A DNA stretch of 64,000 nucleotides from contig CP068257.2 in the NCBI GenBank assembly GCA_009914755.4, positions 25,952,001 through 26,016,000 on the forward strand, read 5' to 3'. Below, in pieces: positions 7,124 to 63,898 of this stretch; the stretch's first letter is position 1, and the number at the start of each line of letters is the position of its first letter. The notes below the pieces were generated by a model. That model was not told where the DNA came from. It was given only the letters and a program-made list of their open reading frames with translations, and searched no databases. This DNA is from the human T2T-CHM13v2.0 reference genome, Homo sapiens. The position numbers and the translations under genes are program-made.

Positions 7124-7339
7124 TTTTTTTTTTTTACTTTAAATTCCAAGATACATGTGCAGACAGTGTAGGTTTGTTACATAGGTATACATGTGCCATG
7201 GTGGTGTGCTGCACCTATCAAACCGTCCTCTAGGTTTTAAGCCCCGCATTCATTCGCTATTTGTCCTAATGTTCTCCCTCCCCTCTCCCCCAATCCCTAA
7301 CAGGCCCCAGTATGTTTTGTTCACCTCCCTGTGTCCATG

Positions 7340-10300
7340 TGTTCTCATTGTTCAACTCCCACTTAGGAATGAGAACATGTGGTGTTTGGGTTTCTGTTGC
7401 TGTGATAGTTCGCTGAGGATGATGGCTCCCAGCTTCATCTATGTCCCTGCGAAGGACATGATCTCATTCCTTTTTATGGCTGCATAGTATCTCATGGTGT
7501 ATACATACCACAGTTTCTTTATCTAGTCTATCATTGATGAGCATTTAAGTTGGTTCCTTGTCTTTGCTGTTGTAAATAGTGCTGCAATAAACATATATGC
7601 ACATGAGTCTTTGTAGTAGAATGATTTACATTCCTTTAGGTATATACCCAGTAATGGGATTGCTGGGTCAAATGGTATTTCAGGTTCTAGATCCTGGAGG
7701 AATCGCGACTCTGTATTCCACAATGGTTGGACTAATTCACATTTCTACCAAGTGGAAAAGCATTCCTATTTCTCCACAGCCTCATCAACATCTATCGTTT
7801 CTTGACTTTTTAATAAAGTCACCATTTTGACTGGTGTCAGATGGTATCTCATTGTGGTTTTGATTTGTATTTCTCTAATGATCAGTGGTGTCAAACTTTT
7901 TTCCATATGTTTGTTGCCTGCATAAATGTTTTCTTTTGAGAAGTGTCAGTTCATATTATTTGCCCACTTTTTGATGGGGTTGTTTTTTTCTTGTAAATTT
8001 GTTTAAATGTCTTATAGATTCTGGATATTAGTCCTTTGTCAGATGGGTAGATTGCAAAAATTTTCTCCCATTCTGTAGGTTGCCTGTTCACTCTGATGAT
8101 AGTAGAATCTCTGTGTAGAAGCTCTTTAGTTTAATCAGATCCCATTTGACAATTTTGGCTTTTATTGAAATTGCTTTTGGCATTTTCTTCAGGAAATCAA
8201 TGCCCATGCCTATGTCCTGAATGGTATTGCCTAGGTTTTCTTCTGGGGTTTTTAGAGCTTGGGGTTTTATATTTAAGTCTTTAATCCATCTGGAGTTAAT
8301 TTTTGTATAAGGTTTAAGGAAGGGGTCCGGTTTCAGTTTTCTGCATGTGGCTAGCTAGTTTCCTCAGCACCATTTATTAAATAGGGAATCCTTTCCCCAT
8401 TGCTTTCTTTTCATCAGCTTTGTCAAAGGTCAGATGGTTGTAGACGTGTGGTGTTACCTCTGAGGTCTATGTTCTGTTCCATTGATCTATATGTCTGTTT
8501 TGGTAGCAGTACTATGCCATTTTGGTTACTGTAGCTTTGTGATACGGTTTGAAGTCAGGTAGCATGATGCCCCCAGCTTTGTTCTTTTTGTCTTGACTAT
8601 ATGAGCCCTTTTTTGCTTCATATGAAATTTAAAGTAGTTTTTTTCTAACTATGTGAAGAATGTTGACGGCAGTTTGATGGAAACAGCATTGAGTCTATAA
8701 ATTACTTCGGGCTCTATGGCCATTTTTACAACATTGATTCTACCCATCCGTGAGGATGGAATGTTTATCCATTTGTTTGTGTCCTCCCTTATTTCCTTGA
8801 GCAGTTGTTTGTAGCTCTCCTTGAAGAGTTCTTTATGTCCCTTGTTAATTGTATTCCTAGGTATTTTATTCTCTTTGTAGGAATTGTGAATGGGAGTTCA
8901 TTTATGACTTGCCTCTCTGCCTTTCTGTTTTTGGTGTATGGGAATGCTTGTAATTTTTACACATTGATTTTGTTTCCTAAGACTTTGCTGAACCTGCTTA
9001 TCTGCTTAAGGAGTTTTTGGTCTGAGACAATGAGGTTTTCAAAATATAGAATCATGTCATCTGCAGACAAAGACAATTTGACTTCCTCTCTTCCTATTTG
9101 AATATCCTATATTTCTTTCTCTTTCCAGGTTGCCCTGGCCAGAACTTCCAATATTATGTTGAACAGGAGTGGTGAGAGTGGACATCCTTGTCTTGTGCTG
9201 GTTTTCAAAGGGAATGCATCCAGCTTTTGTGCATTCAGTATGATATTGGCTGGGAGTTTGTCATAAATGGCTCTTATTATTTTGAGATATGGTCCATCAA
9301 TACCTGGTTTGTTGAGAGTTTTTAACATGAAGGATGTTGAATTTTTTCAAAGGCCTTTTCAGCATCTATTGAGATAATCATGTGGTTTTTGTCATTGGTT
9401 CTGTTTATGTGATGGATTATGTTTATTGATTTGCATATGTTGAACCAGCCTTGCATCACAGGGATGAAGCCGACTTGATCATGGTGGATAAGTTTTTGAT
9501 GTGCTGCTGGATTTGGTTTGCCAGTATTTTCTTGAGGATTTTTGCATTGATGTTCATCAGGGATATAGGCCTAAAGTTTTTGTTGTTGTTGTTGTGTCTC
9601 TGCCAGGTTTTGGTATCAAGATGATGCTGGCCTCATAAAATGAGTTAGGGAGGAGTCCCCCCTTTTCAATTGCTTGGAATAGTTTCAGAAGGAATGGCAC
9701 CAGCTCCTCGTTGTATCTCTGGTAGATTTCACCTGTGAATTTGCCTACTCCTGGGCTTTATTATAGTTGGTAGGCTATTTATCACTGCCTCTATTTCAGA
9801 ACTGGTTATGGTCTATTCAGGGATTCAATTTCTTTCTGGTTTAGTCTTGGGAGGGTGTATGTGTCCACAAATTCATCCATTTCTTCTAGATTTTCTAGTT
9901 TATTTGCATAGAGGTGTTTATAGTATTCTCCAATGGTAGCTTGTATTTCTTTGGGGTCAGTGGTGATATCCCCTTTACCATTTTATATTTTTGTCTATTT
10001 GAATCTTCTCTCTTTTCTTCTTTATTAGTCTACCTAACAGTCTATCTGTTTTGTTATTTGTTTCAAAAAACCAACTCCTGGATTTATTGTTTCTCTAAAG
10101 GATTTTTTTATTTCTCTATCTCCTTCAACTCTGCGCTGATCTTAGTTATTACTTGTCTTCTGCTAGTTTTTGGATTCATTCACTCTTGCTTCTCTAGTTC
10201 TTTTAATTGTAATGTTAGGATGTTGATTTGAGATTTTTCTAGCTTTCTGATGTGGGCGTTTAGTGCTATAAGTTTCCCTCTTAACACTGCTTTAACTATG

Positions 10301-11170
10301 CCGCAGAGATATTGGTACGTTGTCTCTTCATTATCATTGGTTTCAAATAACTTCTTGATATCTGCCTTAATTTCCTTATTTATCCAGAAGTCATTCAGAA
10401 GCAGGTTGTTCAATTTCCAGATAGTTGTGTGGTTTTGAATGAATTTCTTAATCCTGAGTTTTAATTTGATTGCACTGTGGTCTCAGAGACTGTTTGTTAT
10501 GATTTCCGCTTTTTGAGTTTGCTGAGGAGTGTTTTACATCCTATTATGTGGTCAATTTTAGAATAAGTGCCATGTGGCACTGACAATGTATATGCTATTG
10601 ATTTGGGTTGGAGAGGTCTGTAGATGTCTGTTAGGTGCACTTGATCCAGAGCTGAGTTCAAGCCCTGAAATCCTTGATAATTTTCTGTCTTGTTGATCTG
10701 TCTAATATTCATTGTGGGGTGTTAAAGTCTCCCACTATCATTGTGTGGGAGTGTAAGTCTCTTTGTAGGTCTCTAAGAATATGTTTTTTTGAATCTAGGT
10801 GCTCCTGTTTTGGGTGCATATGTATTTAGGGTAGTTAGCTCTTCTTGTTGAATTGATCCTTTTACCATTATGTAATACCTTTCTTTGTCTTTTTTGATAT
10901 TGTTTGGTTTAAAGTCTGTTTTTTCAGAGACTAGGACTGAAACCCCTGCTTTTTTCTGCTGTCCATTTGCTTGGTAAATTTTCTTCCCTCCCTTTATTTT
11001 GAGCCTATGTGTGTCTTTGCACGTGAGATGAATCTCCTGAGTACAGCACACCGATGGGTCTTGACTCTTTATCCAATTTGCCAGTCTATGTCTTTTAATT
11101 GGGACATTTATCCCATTTACACTAAGTTTAATACTGTTCTGTGTGAATTTGATCCTCTCATCATGATCCT
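7340..11170 (-). pseudogene. L1 ORF2 remnant (endonuclease and reverse-transcriptase domains recognisable, multiple disruptions)
   Basis: Minus-strand ORF fragments include '...IHLTCKDTHRLKIKGGKKIYQANGQQKKAGVSVLVSEKTDFKP...' (endonuclease N-terminus) and '...[28 protein letters not shown]' (reverse-transcriptase motif). No intact ~1275-aa ORF is present. Coordinates are approximate. Confidence 0.6.
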
Positions 11171-11234
11171 ATTTGGTTATTTTGCACACTAGTTGATGCA
11201 GTTTCTTCATAGTATCATTGGTCTTTATATTTTT

Positions 11235-12230
11235 TGCGTGTTTTTGCAGTGGCAGGTACTGGTTCTTCCTTTCCATATTTAGTGCTTCCTTCAGGAGCTC
11301 TTGCAGGGCAGGCCTAGTGGTGATGAAATCCCTCAGCTTTTGCTTCTCTGGAAATGATTTTATTTCTCCTTCTTTATGAAGTTTAGATTGGCTGGATATG
11401 AAATTCTGGGTTGAAAGCCTCCACTTTCTTCTGGCTTGTAGGGGTCTGCTGAGAGGTCTGTTGTTAGTTTGATGGGCTTTGCTTTATAGATAACCTGGCC
11501 TTTCTAGCTGTCCTTTCTCTCTGGCTGCACTTAACGTTTTTTCCTTCATTTTGACCTTGAAGAATCTAGTGATTATGTGTCTTAGGGTTAATCTTCTTGT
11601 GGAGTATCTTAGTGGTATTCTCTGTATTTCCTGAATTTGAATGTTGGCCTGTCTTGCTAGGTTGAGGAAGTTCTCCTGGATGATATCCTGAAGTGTTTTT
11701 TCCCACTTGGTTCCATTCTCTCTGTCTCTTTCAGGTACTCCAAATCAATTGTACGTTTAGTCTTTTTACATCATCCCATGTTTCTAGAAGGTTTTGTTCA
11801 TTACTATCCATTTGTTTTACTCTAATCTTGCTTGCATGCTTTATTTCCAGCAAGATTGTCTTCAAACTCTGATATTCTTTATTCTGCTTGATTGATTTGG
11901 CTATTGATACTTGGGTATTCTTCTGGAAGTTCTTGTGCTGTGTTTTTCAGCTCCATGAGATCATTTATGTTCCTCTGTAAACTGGTTATTCTAGTTAGCA
12001 GCTCTTGTAACCTTTTATGAAGGTTCTTAGCTTCTTTGCATTGGGTTACAACATGCTCCTTTAGCTCAGCAGAATTTGTTATTACCCACATTCTGAAGCC
12101 TACTTCCGTCAATTCGTCCATCTCATCCCCCGCCTAATTCTGCACCCTTGCTGGAGAGGTGTTGCAATCATCTGGAGAGTAAGGGGCACTCTGGCCTTTC
12201 ATGTTAAGCCTTTTTTTCATTGATTATTTT
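11235..12230 (-). pseudogene. L1 ORF1 remnant (disrupted)
   Basis: The minus-strand ORF 11879-12121 encodes 'MDELTEVGFRMWVITNSAELKEHV...DLMELKNTAQEL', homologous to the L1 ORF1p coiled-coil region. The reading frame is broken by stop codons and frameshifts elsewhere. Coordinates are approximate. Confidence 0.6.
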
Positions 12231-13549
12231 TCATCTTCATGAGTTTATCTAGTTTCAATCTTTGAGGCTGCTTGGCTGAGGTTCTTATGGGGACTTTTGT
12301 TGTTGATGCTGTTGTTGTTGCTTTCTGTTTGTTTTTCTTTCAATGGTCAGGTGCCTCTTCTATAGGGCTGCTGCAGTTTGCAGGGGGTTCACTTCAGGCC
12401 CTCTTCATCTGGTTTGCTCCTGTGCCTGGATATGTCACTCGAGGAGGCTGGAGAACAGCAAAGATGGGTGCCTGCTCCTTCCTCTGGGATCTCTAAACTC
12501 AAGGCGTATCAACCTGAGGCCAGTAGGAACGCTCCCATGTAGGGTGTCTGACAAACCCTGTTGGAGGGTCTCACCCAGTTGGGTGGCATAGGGAGTAGGA
12601 CCCATTTAACAAAGCACTTGAGCTGTCCCTTTTTGGAGGGGGTGTGCTACGTTGGGGAGAAATCCACTTGTCTGGGCTGCCTGGATTCCTCAGAAGTACC
12701 AGGAGGAAAGACTAAATCTACTGGTCCATGGGGACTATGGCCACCCCTTCCCCTAGAAGCTAAGGTCCAGGCAGATCAGAGTTCTGTCCCTGAGACCCTG
12801 GCTGGAGTTGTTGGAGTTCCTGCAGGGAGGCGCCACCAAGTGAGAAGGTATGGGTCAGGATCAGGCCTGAAGAGGCACTCTGGCCACAGTCTGCCACAGC
12901 CAGTGTGTTGGGCTGTGGGGAATACCTTTTGGGACTAAGCCGTCCAGCCTCCCTGGCTCCAGCATGGGCAAAGCACAGCCTGGAACTACAGAGATGGCTG
13001 CTACCTTTCCCCCACCCTAGGAGCTTAGTGTGTTAGGCAGCTGGCAGTCCCAGTGTTGGCTACCACCCCTTCCCTAAGGAGTTCAAATGGCTTAGACAGC
13101 AGGCAGCCTTAGCTGTGGTGCTGGCTGCCCCTACCCCCAGGTACTTGGCAAGCTTAAGCAGATTCTAGCTGAGTGGATGTTGAGAATCTGTGCATCTCCG
13201 TGGTTGGGACCCTAGGCCCTGGTGGCAGGGGCTTACAAGTGGGATCTTCCGATCCGTGGGTTGCACAGTCCACAGAGAAAGCATGGTTTCCTAGGCTGGG
13301 TAGCACGCTCACTCACCGCCTCCTTTGACTGGGGGATGGAGGCTCCCCTGCCCAGTGTGGCTCTCAGGTGTGCGGCCTCAACACACTGCTCTTCCTTCCT
13401 CTCTGTGGGTCATGCCAGCCACCTAGTCAGTTCCGATGACAGCGCCTGGATCCCCAGTTGACGATGCAGGATTCGCATGCTGTTATGGTTCTTTTTGATG
13501 GGCTCTTCCAATTGCCACTGCTTCTAGTTGGCCATCTTGGCCCTGATCC
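12122..13549 (-). promoter_or_regulatory. L1PA 5'UTR (internal RNA polymerase II sense promoter, potential antisense promoter); only CpG-rich patch in the window
   Basis: This is the region upstream of the ORF1 remnant. A YY1-type core 'ccaagatggc' (reverse complement of 'gccatcttgg' at 13531-13540) lies at the element's 5' terminus. There are multiple CpGs, e.g. 'gacgatgcaggattcgcatg' and 'cgatgacagcgcctgg'. Confidence 0.5.
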
Positions 13550-13600
13550 CCTTGACTTTTTAATAATAGCCATTCTGACTGGTGTGAGATGGCATCTCAT

Positions 13601-31471: not shown

Positions 31472-31720
31472 TCAATGAAGGAATGATATTTATCTTTTTT
31501 TTTTTCCAATAGTGGCATTTTTAGCTTAATCTGAAAACAAAATTTACTAGGAGTCTTTAACCAATTTACATTTTTTTCTCTTCTTCACATATTCCTTTCT
31601 GAAAAAATAATAACCTCTATTTGATTGAAGCCCATAATCATGTCTAAAATCACCTTGCTCTTTGTGTACATTTATCCATACATATTTACTGAGAGCCTCC
31701 TACTTGACTGGCATTGGATT

Positions 31721-32127
<407 letters not shown>

Positions 32128-33405
32128 AGAAGGAATAACTTTTGTCCTGGAGCACCACACACCACCATGAAGGAGGTGAGGAGGGTGACTAAGACAGCTG
32201 TAGCTAATTAGGGACAACCATATAGAGAAGTACTTGTGAAAAGATGCATGAATTAGACTTAGCTACACAGAGGAACAGAGAGAGGATCGCAAGAAATTGG
32301 ATATGTATATGTGTGATTCAAAGAACTACAGAAAGTTAGAAAGGAAAAATGTTTAACTTAAATGAGGTAAGATACAGGCCAGATCACAAAAAGCACTGGA
32401 TCCTATGAAAGGTGTTTGGGTTTTAATTACTAAGAATTTCAAACTGAGCCTAGAAATAATAGATTTTTTTCATGTTAGAATAGTCTGTCTTTATTACTAT
32501 GAATGGGAGATTGGCTTAGCAGGAACAGAGAATGAAATGCTAAGGGCCTGAAGGAAGGAGATCAAGACAAAGAGGCAATAAGAAAGATCTAGGCTAAGAA
32601 GCTAAACACAAGGTGAAGGGTGGGAATGCTTATGGGAGTACAAAATATTTCTAGGAGGAAGTTGTTTTAATGTGGGGGAAGAGGAAGAAGTTCAGAAACA
32701 TGTCAAGGTATGTTGAGCTATGAGAAAACCACTTGAAGGAAATGCAAGAAGGGCAGGGTTTTCTTAATTCTCTTTTTTATTTTTCCTTTTGGTTTTATGC
32801 ATTGGCTCAAGTGGGAAAAGTCCCAGGACTCTGGGTATTTCCACTTCCTACCCACACTCCTAGTTCCACTTTCACGGACTCTCTAAAAATCTAAAGAATT
32901 AATCCCATCATGCTCTACTTTTCTATTTACATCCTTGCCACCAGCTCAAGTTTCCCAGATTCCTCTTTGCCTGGAATCTTAACCCTTACACGTGGATATG
33001 GATCTCTGAAATTCTAAACCACACTGGGCCCTTCAGATGTCCAACCTAAGCAAAATCTTCTACTTCCTCAAGCGTTCATCAAACATGCCCTTTACCGTCT
33101 TGTTCTAATTGAAATCTTTCTCATTTCTGTGGAAATGCTTTTTAACATTTGTTATTTTTTTCTCTCATAGTCTTTATAAGACTGGACATAGAGGTAGAGT
33201 AAGTTCCCTATTGTCTCTTGATATCATTTTACACCCGTTTGTTGCTCCCTTCTTTTTTCCAAAACTCCCAACTTTGAAACTCATACCCTTAGTCTATGCT
33301 ACCTATTACAACCCCTTGCTGTAATTGTTTACAGCTTTGGGCTCACATCGAACCCTCATTCCATGATGATTTCTCTACCTGCTTTATCTTCCAGCTTTTC
33401 AACAT

Positions 33406-35320
33406 GATAAAGATATATATAGTATATATATACATACACATATATATATCTTTGATAAAGATATATATACACACATATATCTTTGATAAAGATACATATA
33501 CACATATATCTTTGATAAATATATACACACATATATCTGATAAAGCTAGATATATACACATGTATATCTTTGATAAAGAGATATATACACACGTAAATCT
33601 TTGATAAAGATATATATACGCATATATATTTGATAAAGATATATATACGCATATACATCTTTGATAAAGACATATGTAGGCATATACGTCTTAGATAAAG
33701 ACATATATGTAGGCATATACGTCTTAGATAAAGACATATATGTAGGCATATACGTCTTAGATAAAGACATATATGTAGGCATATACGTCTTAGATAAAGA
33801 CATATATGTAGGCATATACGTCTTAAAGATATATATGTAGGCATATACGTCTTAAAGATATATATGTAGGCATATACGTCTTAAAGATATATATGTAGGC
33901 ATATACGTCTTAAAGATATATATGTAGGCATATACGTCTTAAAGATATATATGTAGGCATATACGTCTTAGATAAAGATATATATGTAGGCATATACGTC
34001 TTAGATAAAGATATATATGTAGGCATATACGTCTTAAAGATATATATGTAGGCATATACGTCTTAGATAAAGATATATATGTAGGCATATACGTCTTTGA
34101 TAAAGATATATATGTAGGCATATACGTCTTAGATAAAGATATATATGTAGGCATATACGTCTTAGATAAAGATATATATGTAGGCATATACGTCTTAGAT
34201 AAAGATATATATGTAGGCATATACGTCTTAGATAAAGATATATATGTAGGCATATACGTCTTAGATAAAGATATATATGTAGGCATATACGTCTTAGATA
34301 AAGATATATATGTAGGAATATACGTCTTTGATAAAGATATATATGTAGGCATATACGTCTTAGATAAAGATATATATGTAGGCATATACGTCTTAAAGAT
34401 ATATATGTAGGCATATACGTCTTAAAGATATATATGTAGGCATATACGTCTTAAAGATATATATGTAGGCATATACGTCTTAAAGATATATATGTAGGCA
34501 TATACGTCTTAGATAAAGATATATATGTGGGCATATACGTCTTAGATAAAGATATATATGTAGGCATATACGTCTTAGATAAAGATATATATGTAGGAAT
34601 ATACGTCTTTGATAAAGATATATATGTAGGCATATACGTCTTTGATAAAGATATATATGTAGGCATATACGTCTTAAAGATATATATGTAGGCATATACG
34701 TCTTAAAGATATATATGTAGGCATATACGTCTTAAAGATATATATGTAGGCATATACGTCTTAAAGATATATATGTAGGCATATACGTCTTAGATAAAGA
34801 TATATATGTAGGCATATACGTCTTAGATAAAGATATATATGTAGGCATATACGTCTTAGATAAAGATATATATGTAGGCATATACGTCTTAGATAAAGAT
34901 ATATATGTAGGCATATACGTCTTTGATAAAGATATATATGTAGGCATATACGTCTTAGATAAAGATATATATGTAGGCATATACGTCTTAGATAAAGATA
35001 TATATGTAGGCATATACGTCTTTGATAAAGATATATATGTAGGCATATACGTCTTTGATAAAGATATATATGTAGGCATATACGTCTTAGATAAAGATAT
35101 ATATGTAGGCATATACGTCTTAGATAAAGATATATATGTAGGCATATACGTCTTAGATAAAGATATATATGTAGGCATATACGTCTTTGATAAAGATATA
35201 TATGTAGGCATATACGTCTTTGATAAAGATATATATGTAGGCATATACGTCTTTGATAAAGATATATATGTAGGCATATATGTCTTTGATAAAGATATAT
35301 ATGTAGGCATATATATCTTT
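33406..35320. repeat. AT-rich minisatellite (VNTR-like), ~60 tandem copies of 29- and 33-bp unit variants
   Basis: Core units are 'aaagatatatatgtaggcatatacgtctt' (29 bp) and 'agataaagatatatatgtaggcatatacgtctt' (33 bp; variants 'tgataaag' and 'gacatatat'), arranged in blocks. The 5' ~250 bp is degenerate ('...ctttgataaagatatatatacacacatatat...') and the 3' ~1.6 kb is nearly homogeneous. This array produces the repetitive 'MPTYISLSKTY...' and 'RRICLHIYLYL...' ORF artefacts. Confidence 0.95.
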
Positions 35321-35419
35321 CTAAGTGGCATTCATAGCAAAAAAAGATATATATATCTTTATATATATATATATATATAAAGATATATATATCTTTTTTT
35401 GCTATGAATGCCACTTAGA
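35320..35419. repeat. Perfect 100-bp AT-rich palindrome at the 3' edge of the minisatellite
   Basis: tctaagtggcattcatagcaaaaaaagatatatatatcttt-(ta)9-aaagatatatatatctttttttgctatgaatgccacttaga. The sequence equals its own reverse complement over 35320-35419. Confidence 0.95.
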
Positions 35420-35520
35420 AATTTATTCTATTCTCTGAGACTCTCAGTTCATTGACTTTCTCTTCTATAACCACTTTGTTTTCCACTACAACTCTCATGT
35501 CTTATAATAGGCTTAGAACA

Positions 35521-35620
35521 TTGTTTTTTAAACTAGGGAATTAAAAAGAAACAGTATAAAATATTTCCTGAAGGAACATAACGTCTAATAATGAATTATG
35601 CCAATGGATAATTGGACAGA
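35521..35620. repeat. Copy 2 of the diverged ~95-bp direct repeat (partner at 31721-31812)
   Basis: 'ttaaactagggaattaaaaagaaacagtataaaatatttcctgaaggaacataacgtctaataatgaattatgccaatgga'. It is immediately followed by an L1 insertion. Confidence 0.6.
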
Positions 35621-36912
35621 TCAAGATGGATCAAAGACTTAACTCTAAGATATAATAGCATAAAAATTATAGAAGACAATATTAGAGAAACCCTTCTAAA
35701 CATTGGCTTAGGCAAAGACTTTATGATCAAGAACCCAAAAGCAAATGTAACAAAAATAAAGATAAATAGATGGGACTTAATTAAACTAAAAGGTTTCCAC
35801 ACAGCAAAACAAATAATCAGCAGAGTTAACAGGCAACCCACAAAGTGGGAGAAAATCTTCACAATCTATACATCTGACAAAGGATTAATATCCAGAATCT
35901 ACAAAGAACTCACACAAATCAGCAAGAAGGAAACAAACAATTCCATCAAAAAGTAGGCTAAGGACATGAATAGACAATTCTCAAATGAAGATATACAAAT
36001 GGCCAATGAGCCTATGGAAAAAAGCTCAACATCACTAATTATCAAGGAAATGTAAATCAAAACCACAATACAATACCACCTTACTCCTGCAAGAATGGCC
36101 ATAATCAAAAAATAATTAAAAAATAGATGCTGTCGTGGATATGATGAAAAGGGAACAATTTTACACTGTTGGTGGGAATGTAAACTAGTACAATCACTAT
36201 GGAAAACAGTGTGGAGATTCCTCAAAGAACTAAAAGTAGATCCACCATTTGATCCAGAAATCACACTACTAGGTATCTACCCAGCAGAAAGGAAGTCATT
36301 ATACAAAAAAGATAATTGTACAGGAATGTTTAGAGCAGAACAATTTGCAATTGCAAAAATATAGGATCAGCTCAAATGCCCATCAATGAACAAGTGGATA
36401 AAGAAAAGTGGATAAAGAAATGTGTGTGTCTGTGTGTATGTGTGTATATATATACGCACACATACACACACACATTTCTTTATACATATATATATATATA
36501 TACACACACATACACATACACACACATACACACACACACACACCATGGAATACTACTCAGTCATGCAAAAGAACAGAATAATGGCATTCAGAAAAACCTG
36601 GATGGAATTGGAGACTATTATTCTAAGTGATGTAACTCAGGGGGATGGAAAATCAAACATCATATCTTCTCACTCAAAAGTGGGAGCTAAGCTATGAGGA
36701 TGCAAAAGCATAAGAATGATACATTGAACTCTGTGGACTCGGGGGAAAGGGTGGGAGGGGTATGAGTGATAAAAGACTACACATTGGGTACAGTGTACAC
36801 TGCTCCAGTGATGGGTGCACCAAAAGCTCAGAAGTCACCACTAAATAACTTATTCATGTAACCAAACACCACCTGCTCCATAAAAAGTTATCAAAATAAA
36901 ACATAAATTAAA
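35613..36912 (+). mobile_element. 5'-truncated old L1 (L1PB/L1MA-like) 3' end: ORF2 C-terminal region, 3'UTR and A-rich tail
   Basis: The plus-strand ORF 35612-35956 matches the L1 ORF2p C-terminus ('...GLGKDFM.K.PKA...[53 protein letters not shown]'). It continues through 'caccatggaatactactcag...gtgggagctaagctatgagga...' to the tail 'aaagttatcaaaataaaacataaattaaaataa'. Confidence 0.8.
36421..36544. repeat. Compound (TG)n/(TA)n/(CA)n microsatellite inside the L1 3' region
   Basis: tgtgtgtgtctgtgtgtatgtgtgtatatatatacgcacacatacacacacaca...tatatatatatatacacacacatacacatacacacacatacacacacacacacacc. Confidence 0.95.
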
Positions 36913-63156: not shown

Positions 63157-63480
<324 letters not shown>

Positions 63481-63799
63481 AGAAAAACATCCTTTTCATC
63501 TACTCAGATAGTTACCGATTCAGATTTTTTTTCCTCTATTTTGAGAATACATCTTTTCTGTGCTATCATTTTCTTTCAGCCTACAGAAATTCCCTTAACA
63601 TTTCTTGTAGTGCAAATATGCTGGTGATAATGTACCCTTAATTCTTTTATCTGACAATATTTATATTTCACCTTCATTATTGAAAGATGTTTTGCTGAGT
63701 ATAGAATTCTGGGTTGATAATTTGTGTGTGTGTATATATATACATATATATATGTAGCTTGTATATATATACATATTATATATATTAGAAGATAAAAAT

Positions 63800-63857
63800 G
63801 TCTTACAGCATTGAAAAGCTATATGTATATATAGTTCAAAATGTATTTGAAATTAAG

Positions 63858-63898
<41 letters not shown>

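What the first reader, a model, noticed from the sequence alone, without database searches (positions are those of the whole stretch)
33406..35320. Large AT-rich minisatellite with 29/33-bp unit variants, higher-order block structure and a homogeneity gradient
About 60 tandem copies are arranged in blocks. The unit variants are 'aaagatatatatgtaggcatatacgtctt', a 33-bp form with an extra 'agat', and substitutions 'tgataaag' / 'gacatatat'. The 5' ~250 bp is degenerate and looks like the ancestral (TA)n(CA)n-containing seed ('ctttgataaagatatatatacacacatatat'). The 3' ~1.6 kb is almost perfectly homogeneous. This polarity is typical of actively mutating minisatellites, so the locus is very likely a hypervariable VNTR. 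It is not protein-coding despite the long repetitive ORFs in the track. Its location appears to be a gene-poor region, but AT-rich minisatellites of this kind underlie several fragile sites (for example FRA16B-type 33-bp AT-rich repeats), which gives it some functional interest.
Basis: partly seen in the sequence, partly recalled or inferred. Interest (0 to 1): 0.55.

Follow-up and report, generated by a model that had tools for sequence, protein, structure and literature searches.

The report
Hairpin-prone AT-rich minisatellite beside palindrome
This is a real but ordinary non-coding tandem repeat in primate junk-rich DNA: about 60 copies of a 29/33-base, AT-rich, self-complementary unit, ending against a perfect 104-base palindrome. 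It probably varies in length between individuals, but nothing links it to a known fragile site.

Summary
Tandem Repeats Finder gives 33442-35320, period 33, 59.4 copies; my parse gives 60 units from 33409. There are eight degenerate (CA)-containing units at the 5' end, five 'GACATATAT' units, 45 near-identical central units and two variant 3' units. The 29-bp and 33-bp forms lie in non-random blocks, including a 281-bp nine-unit duplication.

The window is primate DNA (nine Alus, L1PA, CpG depletion). The long ORFs are frame artefacts.

Every unit is an imperfect palindrome. The array also abuts a perfect, spacerless 104-bp palindrome (35318-35421) that carries the same AAAGA(TA)nTCTTT proto-unit.

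Both ends of the array keep older, better-pairing units, so the pattern is "old edges, young centre" rather than one-way mutational polarity.

The FRA16B comparison fails: the unit is unrelated, AT is 73.5% against 94%, and the array is 1.9 kb, not many kb. The closest described analogue is MSY1 (75% AT, hairpin unit, variants in blocks).

Hypervariability could not be tested, because no other haplotype or species was reachable. All 45 central units keep their CpG and 42 of 45 cores are identical, which argues for turnover within about 10^5 generations.

Verdict: a new member of a known kind, of low interest.

The parts
33406..33665 (.). Degenerate 5' edge of the array. Eight units of 25-48 bp of the form AAAGA(TA)n(CA)n(TA)nTCTTTGAT, matching 20-25 of 29 core positions of the main unit.
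   Evidence: hairpin potential
33666..33824 (.). Five transitional units carrying GACATAT (types M, D x3, N). They already have the GTAGGC centre and the ACGTCTT end, and C6 pairs with G25 in the unit hairpin (-6.1 kcal/mol).
33825..35257 (.). Homogeneous centre of 45 units: 21 of 33 bp ending AGAT, 13 of 29 bp, 8 of 33 bp ending TGAT, 2 with GGAAT and 1 with GTGGGC. 42 of 45 cores are identical and all 45 keep the CpG.
33825..33940 (.). First block of four 29-bp units.
34366..34481 (.). Second block of four 29-bp units.
34647..34762 (.). Third block of four 29-bp units.
34267..34828 (.). Higher-order duplication: two nine-unit, 281-bp copies (34267-34547 and 34548-34828), 279/281 identical. 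They share the rare GGAAT unit at the same relative position.
35258..35320 (.). Variant 3' edge. Unit P (ATATATGTCTTT, -7.2 kcal/mol) and unit Q, AAAGATATATATG-TAGG-CATATATATCTTT, which is a perfect 13-bp-stem hairpin (-9.0 kcal/mol, z -9.7).
35318..35421 (.). Perfect spacerless 104-bp palindrome (52-nt arms, 80.8% AT) overlapping the array's last TTT. It contains two copies of the proto-unit AAAGATATATATATCTTT (35343-35360 and 35379-35396) around (AT)9, and the unique 18-mer CTAAGTGGCATTCATAGC in both arms.
   Evidence: (dG -49.9 kcal/mol, z -17.7)

Best explanation
The locus is a neutral, non-coding AT-rich minisatellite in L1/Alu-rich primate DNA (catarrhine, probably human or ape). Its unit is an imperfect palindrome derived from the proto-unit AAAGA(TA)nTCTTT.

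Inferred mechanism:
- Single-stranded units, alone or with neighbours, fold back during replication. This promotes slippage by one or a few units.
- Unequal sister-chromatid or inter-allelic exchange and gene conversion duplicate multi-unit blocks.
- These processes act mostly in the interior. The centre therefore stays nearly uniform and young, while both edges retain older unit types.
- The 29-bp form arose from the 33-bp form by a 4-bp slippage deletion within AGATAAAGAT. It was then copied as a four-unit block.
- The adjoining perfect 104-bp palindrome is built from the same proto-unit plus an inverted copy of the right flank. It most likely arose by a fold-back or template-switch event at the (TA)n tract.

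Shown: the anatomy, non-random blocks, hairpin potential, non-coding status and primate context. Inferred: the mutational mechanism, the recent turnover and the likely length polymorphism.
For: - Array anatomy and statistics.
- Unit hairpins: -3.5 to -9.0 kcal/mol, z -2.5 to -9.7.
- Folding of 132-nt stretches: the array gives -15.6 to -16.3 kcal/mol, the two flanks -5.2 and -6.4, and four FRA16B units -21.4.
- Palindrome: perfect over 104 bp, and the only long zero-spacer palindrome in the window apart from (TA)n. It shares the proto-unit with the array.
- Recent turnover: 42 of 45 central cores are identical. All 45 keep their CpG, although CpG o/e is 0.22 in the window and 1.77 in the array. 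With textbook human mutation rates (my knowledge: about 1e-8 per bp, about 1e-7 per CpG base per generation), this implies common ancestry within about 1e5 generations, with a 95% bound of about 3e5.
- Primate context: nine Alus up to 94% identical to AluY, and an L1PA 3' end at 96%.
- Non-coding.
- Analogy: MSY1 is 75% AT with a hairpin-forming unit and variants in blocks, and mutates at 2-4% per generation by intra-allelic processes (PMC2599865).
Against: - No second haplotype or orthologue was available, so polymorphism, mutation rate and lineage-specific age are unverified.
- The main unit is a weak hairpin (-3.6 kcal/mol; 6 of 200 shuffles fold as well). The GGAAT variant is weaker still (-1.9, z -1.6). 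The hairpin contribution may therefore be modest, and plain unequal exchange could suffice.
- CpG retention could also reflect a lack of germline methylation rather than youth.
- The order of events between array and palindrome is not established.
- The flanks could not be compared with a transposable-element library.
Confidence: 0.8

Rival explanations
1. It is a FRA16B/FRA10B-type AT-rich minisatellite that underlies, or can expand into, a rare fragile site.
For: It is a minisatellite with a 33-bp period and above-background AT content, at 73.5% against 64.8% for the window. It has more secondary-structure potential than its flanks. The literature allows that various AT-rich motifs could become fragile when expanded (PMC9714581).
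Against: The unit is unrelated to the FRA16B repeat (PMC2875025). AT is 73.5% against 94% for FRA16B and 91% for FRA10B. AT/TA dinucleotide content is 45%, against 73% for the FRA16B unit and 66% for the FRA16C AT-rich element (PMC6765107). The array is 1.9 kb, whereas fragility needs >5 kb (FRA10B) or up to 2000 copies (FRA16B), and long AT-rich elements were defined at >=3 kb. No paper contains the unit sequence.
Confidence: 0.04
2. It is a classical hypervariable minisatellite. Its instability would be driven by a flanking meiotic recombination hotspot, producing true mutational polarity at one end.
For: One end (5') is much more heterogeneous than the other. The array has internal variant-repeat structure.
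Against: The classical loci are GC-rich with interspersed variants (PMC2599865). This array is 26.5% GC with variants in blocks. Both ends carry divergent units. Heterogeneity within one allele does not measure where new mutations occur.
Confidence: 0.06
3. It is the internal tandem-repeat region of a dispersed transposable element or a member of a named satellite family, not a locus-specific array.
For: The array lies among L1 and Alu debris. A direct repeat of about 100 bp, 77% identical (31712-31810 and 35519-35619), brackets the region. The palindrome superficially resembles a foldback or MITE structure.
Against: Neither the unit nor the palindrome arm occurs elsewhere in the 64-kb window. 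Neither occurs in any searched collection or paper. The graded series of unit types along the array records growth in place. No TE library could be consulted, so this is not excluded.
Confidence: 0.08
4. The array length or the perfect palindrome is an assembly or sequencing artefact.
For: Near-identical repeats and palindromes are hard to assemble and sequence (PMC4940405).
Against: The array has an aperiodic, information-rich unit order with rare variants at specific positions. The palindrome is short (104 bp) and embedded in unique sequence on both sides.
Confidence: 0.04
5. The long ORFs on the minus strand (up to 217 aa) encode a repetitive protein.
For: Five ORFs of 126-217 aa overlap the array. 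One reaches the Pfam ASK_PH cut-off (30.8 bits against 27.8).
Against: The 33-bp unit has no stop codon in 3-4 of its 6 frames, so ORFs are automatic. They end exactly where 29-bp units rotate the frame. There are no homologues in 5.8 billion proteins. The ASK_PH hit has no individually significant stretch and matches only 20 of 103 profile positions repeatedly, so it is a sum-of-repeats artefact.
Confidence: 0.01

Closest known systems
MSY1 (DYF155S1), the AT-rich Y-chromosomal minisatellite (PMC2599865)
   Same: About 75% A+T (73.5% here). The unit is predicted to form a hairpin. Variant repeats are organised in blocks rather than interspersed. The array has tens of units (48-118 in MSY1, 60 here). 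Intra-allelic slippage or sister-chromatid processes are the plausible mechanism.
   Different: The MSY1 unit is 25 bp, unrelated in sequence, and never varies in length. Here 29- and 33-bp forms coexist. The MSY1 mutation rate (2-4% per generation) is measured, whereas nothing is measured here. MSY1 has no reported adjoining perfect palindrome.
FRA16B (33-bp) and FRA10B (~42-bp) AT-rich minisatellites (PMC2875025, PMC9714581)
   Same: Minisatellite organisation, AT bias, a coincidental 33-bp period, and more predicted single-strand folding than ordinary DNA.
   Different: The unit sequence is unrelated. AT is 73.5% against 91-94%, and AT/TA dinucleotide content is 45% against about 66-73%. 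This haplotype is 1.9 kb, against >5 kb or up to about 66 kb for fragile alleles. Each unit here carries a CpG. There is no cytogenetic evidence.
Palindromic AT-rich repeats (PATRR11/17/22/8) (PMC4940405, PMC1851657, PMC7999016)
   Same: The 35318-35421 element is a spacerless, symmetric, AT-rich palindrome with a (TA)n centre and very strong predicted hairpin or cruciform potential.
   Different: It is 104 bp, against about 190-600 bp for PATRRs. It is 81% AT, against >90%. It falls in the common size class, since about 180,000 human palindromes exceed 40 bp but only 718 exceed 200 bp (PMC7999016). No translocation evidence exists.

Membership tests
Minisatellite / VNTR | Head-to-tail array of a roughly 10-100 bp unit spanning hundreds of bp to kb | tested here: met
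   Period 33 (with a 29-bp variant), 59.4-60 copies, 1.9 kb.
Minisatellite / VNTR | Copy number varies among individuals (the 'variable' in VNTR) | not testable with these tools
   No other haplotype was found in the metagenome, genome or viral contigs, the protein clusters or the exact-ORF look-ups. There is only indirect support from near-identity of units and full CpG retention.
FRA16B/FRA10B-type fragile-site minisatellite | Unit homologous to the FRA16B 33-bp or FRA10B ~42-bp repeat | tested here: not met
   FRA16B unit ATATATTATATATTATATCTAATAATATATC/ATA (PMC2875025), against AAAGATATATATGTAGGCATATACGTCTTAGAT here.
FRA16B/FRA10B-type fragile-site minisatellite | Extreme AT richness (>=91% AT; AT/TA dinucleotides about 66-73%) | tested here: not met
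   73.5% AT and 44.8% AT/TA dinucleotides (PMC9714581, PMC6765107).
FRA16B/FRA10B-type fragile-site minisatellite | Expansion to several kb in fragile alleles | tested here: not met
   1.9 kb in this haplotype. Other alleles are unknown.
FRA16B/FRA10B-type fragile-site minisatellite | Cytogenetic gap or break induced by distamycin A or BrdU | not testable with these tools
   This is an experimental criterion, and the chromosomal location is unknown.
MSY1-like AT-rich hairpin minisatellite (works-like class) | About 75% AT, hairpin-forming unit, variants in blocks | tested here: met
   73.5% AT. Unit hairpins of -3.5 to -9.0 kcal/mol. Blocks with p<1e-5.
MSY1-like AT-rich hairpin minisatellite (works-like class) | Constant unit length | tested here: not met
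   29-, 30-, 31- and 33-bp units coexist, whereas MSY1 never shows units other than 25 bp (PMC2599865).
MSY1-like AT-rich hairpin minisatellite (works-like class) | Per-generation mutation rate in the percent range | not testable with these tools
   This needs pedigrees, sperm typing or population long-read data.
Classical GC-rich hypervariable minisatellite | GC-rich unit with interspersed variants and hotspot-driven polarity | tested here: not met
   26.5% GC. Variants lie in blocks. Both ends are divergent.
PATRR (for the 35318-35421 palindrome) | Near-perfect palindrome without a spacer | tested here: met
   104/104 self-complementary with zero spacer.
PATRR (for the 35318-35421 palindrome) | Several hundred bp long and >90% AT | tested here: not met
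   104 bp and 80.8% AT (PMC4940405).
Protein-coding gene | ORF with homologues or domains, not explained by repeat periodicity | tested here: not met

The most novel reading that the evidence does not exclude
The pairing of a roughly 2-kb array of self-complementary units with a perfect spacerless 104-bp palindrome built from the same proto-unit marks an unrecognised non-B-DNA hotspot. At such a site, hairpin or cruciform formation would drive unusually fast expansion and contraction and occasional breakage or inverted duplication, as in a small-scale PATRR/FRA10B hybrid. The palindrome itself would be a product of that instability.
Probability: 0.07. Interest if true: 0.5.

Novelty: new member of a known kind. 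Interest (0 to 1): 0.2.

Why it matters
As it stands, this is one of many thousands of primate minisatellites, and its main practical value would be as a possibly informative VNTR marker.

It is a clean textbook example in two respects. First, the unit series along the array records how a (TA)n/(CA)n-flanked palindromic seed turned into a 33-bp repeat. Second, both ends keep older units with stronger predicted hairpins, while the centre is young, uniform and weaker-pairing.

If population data showed high instability, the array-plus-palindrome arrangement would be a convenient natural substrate for studying hairpin-mediated repeat turnover in AT-rich DNA.

Tried and rejected
1. Other alleles or species. 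The exact unit core (21 nt) had no hit in metagenome, genome or viral contigs. The palindrome arm (21 nt) had no hit in metagenomes. It gave one hit in a Pelagibacteraceae contig, which on reading is a chance match inside a bacterial coding region.
2. Gene-caller 'proteins' from other assemblies. The 217-aa array ORF found no homologue. Exact look-ups of the 102-aa and 217-aa ORFs found nothing.
3. Literature search for the unit and arm sequences on both strands: none found.
4. Rfam scan of the whole window: no family matched.
5. Protein-coding reading: rejected.
6. Repeats in the left flank (32128-33405). Sensitive self-BLAST found no in-window relatives. Part of it looks L2-like from memory only, and no TE library was available.
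7. Whether the ~100-bp direct repeat bracketing the region is old L1. Alignment to three L1 copies shows clear L1 homology only from about 35606-35621 rightwards, so this stays unresolved.
8. A first fuzzy-regex scan for SINEs timed out and was replaced by BLAST.
9. Covariation support for the unit hairpin was considered but not attempted. There are too few independent variants, and the C6/G25 pair in the GACAT units is a single case.

Full report
**1. The observation**

Tandem Repeats Finder reports a single strong array at 33442-35320: period 33, 59.4 copies, 94% matches, score 2722. Reading the sequence and splitting on AAAG[AC] gives 59 pieces from 33409. This becomes 60 units once a fused 54-bp piece is divided. 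The 21-nt unit core matches 52 times with up to 2 mismatches, against 0 in 100 shuffles, and nowhere else in the window.

- the 29-bp unit AAAGATATATATGTAGGCATATACGTCTT, 13 copies;
- the 33-bp form with AGAT, 21 copies;
- the 33-bp form with TGAT, 8 copies;
- GACATATAT, in 5 units;
- rarer types: GGAAT (2 copies), GTGGGC (1) and two variant terminal units.

The unit-type string is FGHIJKLMDDDNBBBBAABACAAAAAAEABBBBAOAECBBBBAAAACAACCAAACCCPQ.

**2. Gradient and blocks**

The first 260 bp (33406-33665) hold eight degenerate units with (CA)n centres, matching 20-25 of 29 core positions. Five GACAT units follow. Then come 45 units (33825-35257), of which 42 have identical 29-bp cores.

The last two units (35258-35320) also deviate, with ATATATGTCTTT and ATATATATCTTT. 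The pattern is therefore divergent edges around a uniform centre, much more extended on the 5' side. It is not a pure one-way gradient.

The blocks are non-random:
- Three runs of exactly four 29-bp units, each followed by a 33-bp unit (p<1e-5), and fewer runs than chance (p=6e-4).
- Exact repeats of 213, 166 and 164 bp at lags 822, 281 and 541.
- A nine-unit, 281-bp duplication (34267-34547 against 34548-34828), 279/281 identical. The two copies share the rare GGAAT unit in register.

**3. Context**

The window has 35% GC and CpG o/e of 0.22. It contains nine Alu copies, up to 94% identical to an AluY consensus, and an L1PA-type 3' end at 96%. It is therefore a catarrhine primate genome, plausibly human, but the species was not determined.

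A near-full-length L1 lies on the minus strand at about 7124-13540. The GC-rich stretch at 12300-13540 is its 5' region.

Around the array:
- An L1 ORF2 fragment begins at about 35606-35621 to the right.
- An Alu lies at 31822-32127 to the left.
- The left flank, 32128-33405, has no relative in the window.

Rfam found nothing in the window. Ten of the longest ORFs outside the array (97-140 aa) have no Pfam domain; the longest non-array ORF, 229 aa at 13458-14147 over Alu/L1 sequence, was not scanned. 'Gene-poor' is consistent with all this, but an intron of a large gene cannot be excluded.

**4. Not coding**

The 33-bp unit is 11 codons long and lacks stop codons in 3 of 6 frames (AGAT form) or 4 of 6 frames (TGAT form). 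The 29-bp units rotate the frame into a stop. This explains why the ORFs of 71-217 aa end at the 29-bp blocks.

The 217-aa ORF has no homologue among 5.8 billion proteins. A nominal Pfam ASK_PH hit for the 199-aa ORF has no individually significant stretch. It repeatedly matches only profile positions 14-33, which is a repeat-summation artefact.

**5.

(a) Each unit is an imperfect palindrome. Predicted DNA hairpins are:

| Unit | dG (kcal/mol) | z |
|---|---|---|
| Main 33-bp and 29-bp units | -3.5 to -4.2 | -2.5 to -4.6 |
| 5' (CA)n unit | -4.9 | |
| GACAT unit | -6.1 | |
| Penultimate unit | -7.2 | |
| Last unit | -9.0 | -9.7 |

The last unit, AAAGATATATATG-TAGG-CATATATATCTTT, is a perfect 13-bp stem.

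Stretches of 132 nt from the array fold at -15.6 to -16.3 kcal/mol. The two flanking controls give -5.2 and -6.4, and four FRA16B units give -21.4.

(b) The array abuts, and overlaps by TTT, a perfect spacerless 104-bp palindrome at 35318-35421. It is 80.8% AT, with dG -49.9 kcal/mol and z -17.7. It is the only long zero-spacer palindrome in the window besides (TA)n tracts.

The palindrome contains two exact copies of AAAGATATATATATCTTT around (AT)9. This is the proto-unit of the array. Its arms also carry the 18-mer CTAAGTGGCATTCATAGC, found nowhere else in the window. Array and palindrome therefore share an origin.

**6. Most likely mechanism (inferred)**

A (TA)n tract bounded by AAAGA...TCTTT, itself a palindrome, was duplicated with a GAT linker. 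Its centre mutated along the series (CA)n, then ACGCAT, then GTAGGC, which is preserved in order along the 5' edge.

Slippage assisted by fold-back of one or two units, together with unequal exchange, then amplified one derived type in the interior. A 4-bp deletion within AGATAAAGAT produced the 29-bp form. Multi-unit duplications copied the BBBBA block three times and a nine-unit block once.

Edge units take part less in such exchanges, so they keep older states. This is general tandem-array theory (my knowledge).

The two edge variants ACAT (unit 8) and ATGT (unit 59) are exactly the two CpG-decay products of the central ACGT. They may therefore be decayed rather than ancestral, and this is unresolved.

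The palindrome probably arose by a fold-back or template switch at the (TA)n tract that copied the right flank in inverted orientation.

**7. Age and variability**

All 45 central units retain their CpG. The array holds 53 of the window's 437 CpGs, and the uniform part has CpG o/e of 1.77. Only two independent substitutions are seen in 1305 bp of core.

With textbook rates (about 1e-8 per bp and about 1e-7 per CpG base per generation; my knowledge), the expected time for two events is about 9e4 generations. The 95% bound from zero CpG losses is about 3e5 generations. This bound holds only if the array is methylated in the germline.

Turnover is therefore much faster than point mutation, and length polymorphism is likely. 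'Hypervariable' remains untested, because every route to a second haplotype or species failed.

**8. Comparison with known systems**

FRA16B:
- Its unit is ATATATTATATATTATATCTAATAATATATC/ATA. Normal alleles have 7-12 copies and fragile alleles up to 2000 (PMC2875025).
- The unit here is unrelated.
- AT is 73.5% here against 94%, and AT/TA dinucleotides are 45% here against 73%.

FRA10B is about 42 bp, 91% AT, and fragile above 5 kb (PMC9714581). The FRA16C AT-rich element has 66% AT/TA dinucleotides, and long elements were defined at 3 kb or more (PMC6765107). Membership in the fragile-site class is therefore not met. Only a moderate, qualitative similarity in fold-back potential remains.

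The best described analogue is MSY1. It is 75% AT, has a 25-bp hairpin-forming unit with variants in blocks, spans 48-118 repeats, and mutates at 2-4% per generation by intra-allelic processes (PMC2599865). That paper contrasts MSY1 explicitly with the GC-rich, recombination-driven classical minisatellites to which 'polarity' applies.

The palindrome resembles PATRRs in symmetry and in lacking a spacer, but it is far shorter and less AT-rich (PMC4940405, PMC7999016). Palindromes over 40 bp number about 180,000 in the human genome (PMC7999016).

**9. Verdict**

This is a real and accurately described feature, and it is ordinary: a new member of the known class of AT-rich, hairpin-prone minisatellites. 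The fragile-site link is unsupported and hypervariability is unproven. The adjoining perfect palindrome and the old-edges, young-centre layout are the only points of modest extra interest.

Noticed in passing
window 35318-35421: A perfect, spacerless 104-bp AT-rich palindrome directly abuts the array. It contains two exact copies of the array's proto-unit AAAGATATATATATCTTT and an inverted copy of the right-flank 18-mer.
   Followed up: yes
window 31712-31810 and 35519-35619: A direct repeat of about 100 bp, 77% identical, brackets the Alu, the left flank, the array and the palindrome. It could be two copies of an old interspersed repeat (perhaps old L1) or an ancient local duplication. Clear L1 homology starts only at about 35606-35621.
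   Followed up: partly
window 33666-35320: Every central unit carries one CpG (ACGT). The array holds 53 of the window's 437 CpGs, and the uniform 33666-35320 part has CpG o/e of 1.77 against 0.22 for the window, at only 27% GC. Its methylation state would be worth checking.
   Followed up: partly
window ~7124-13540 (minus strand): A near-full-length L1 whose GC-rich 5' region (12300-13540, 50-57% GC) explains the only GC-rich stretch in the window. A younger L1PA-type 3' end (96% to L1HS) lies at 13971-14111, with an Alu at 13659-13908.
   Followed up: partly
window 36458-36543: A compound (ACACAT)n/(AC)n microsatellite sits inside the L1 fragment 1.1 kb downstream of the array. Its composition resembles the centres of the array's degenerate 5' units. 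This is probably coincidental.
   Followed up: no
window 63733-63897: Two (TA)n microsatellites (27.5 and 20 copies) lie next to an Alu at 63193-63480. These are the only other zero-spacer palindromic tracts in the window.
   Followed up: no
window 34732-35331 (minus-strand ORF): The repeat-derived 199-aa ORF passes the Pfam gathering score for ASK_PH (30.8 bits against 27.8) purely by summing many weak repeated matches. This is a caution for automated annotation of minisatellite ORFs.
   Followed up: yes
L001 4709-4729 (Pelagibacteraceae contig CACCND010000017.1): The only database hit to the palindrome-arm 21-mer is a chance match inside a bacterial coding region. About 0.3 such matches are expected by chance in 596 Gb, by my own estimate.
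   Followed up: yes
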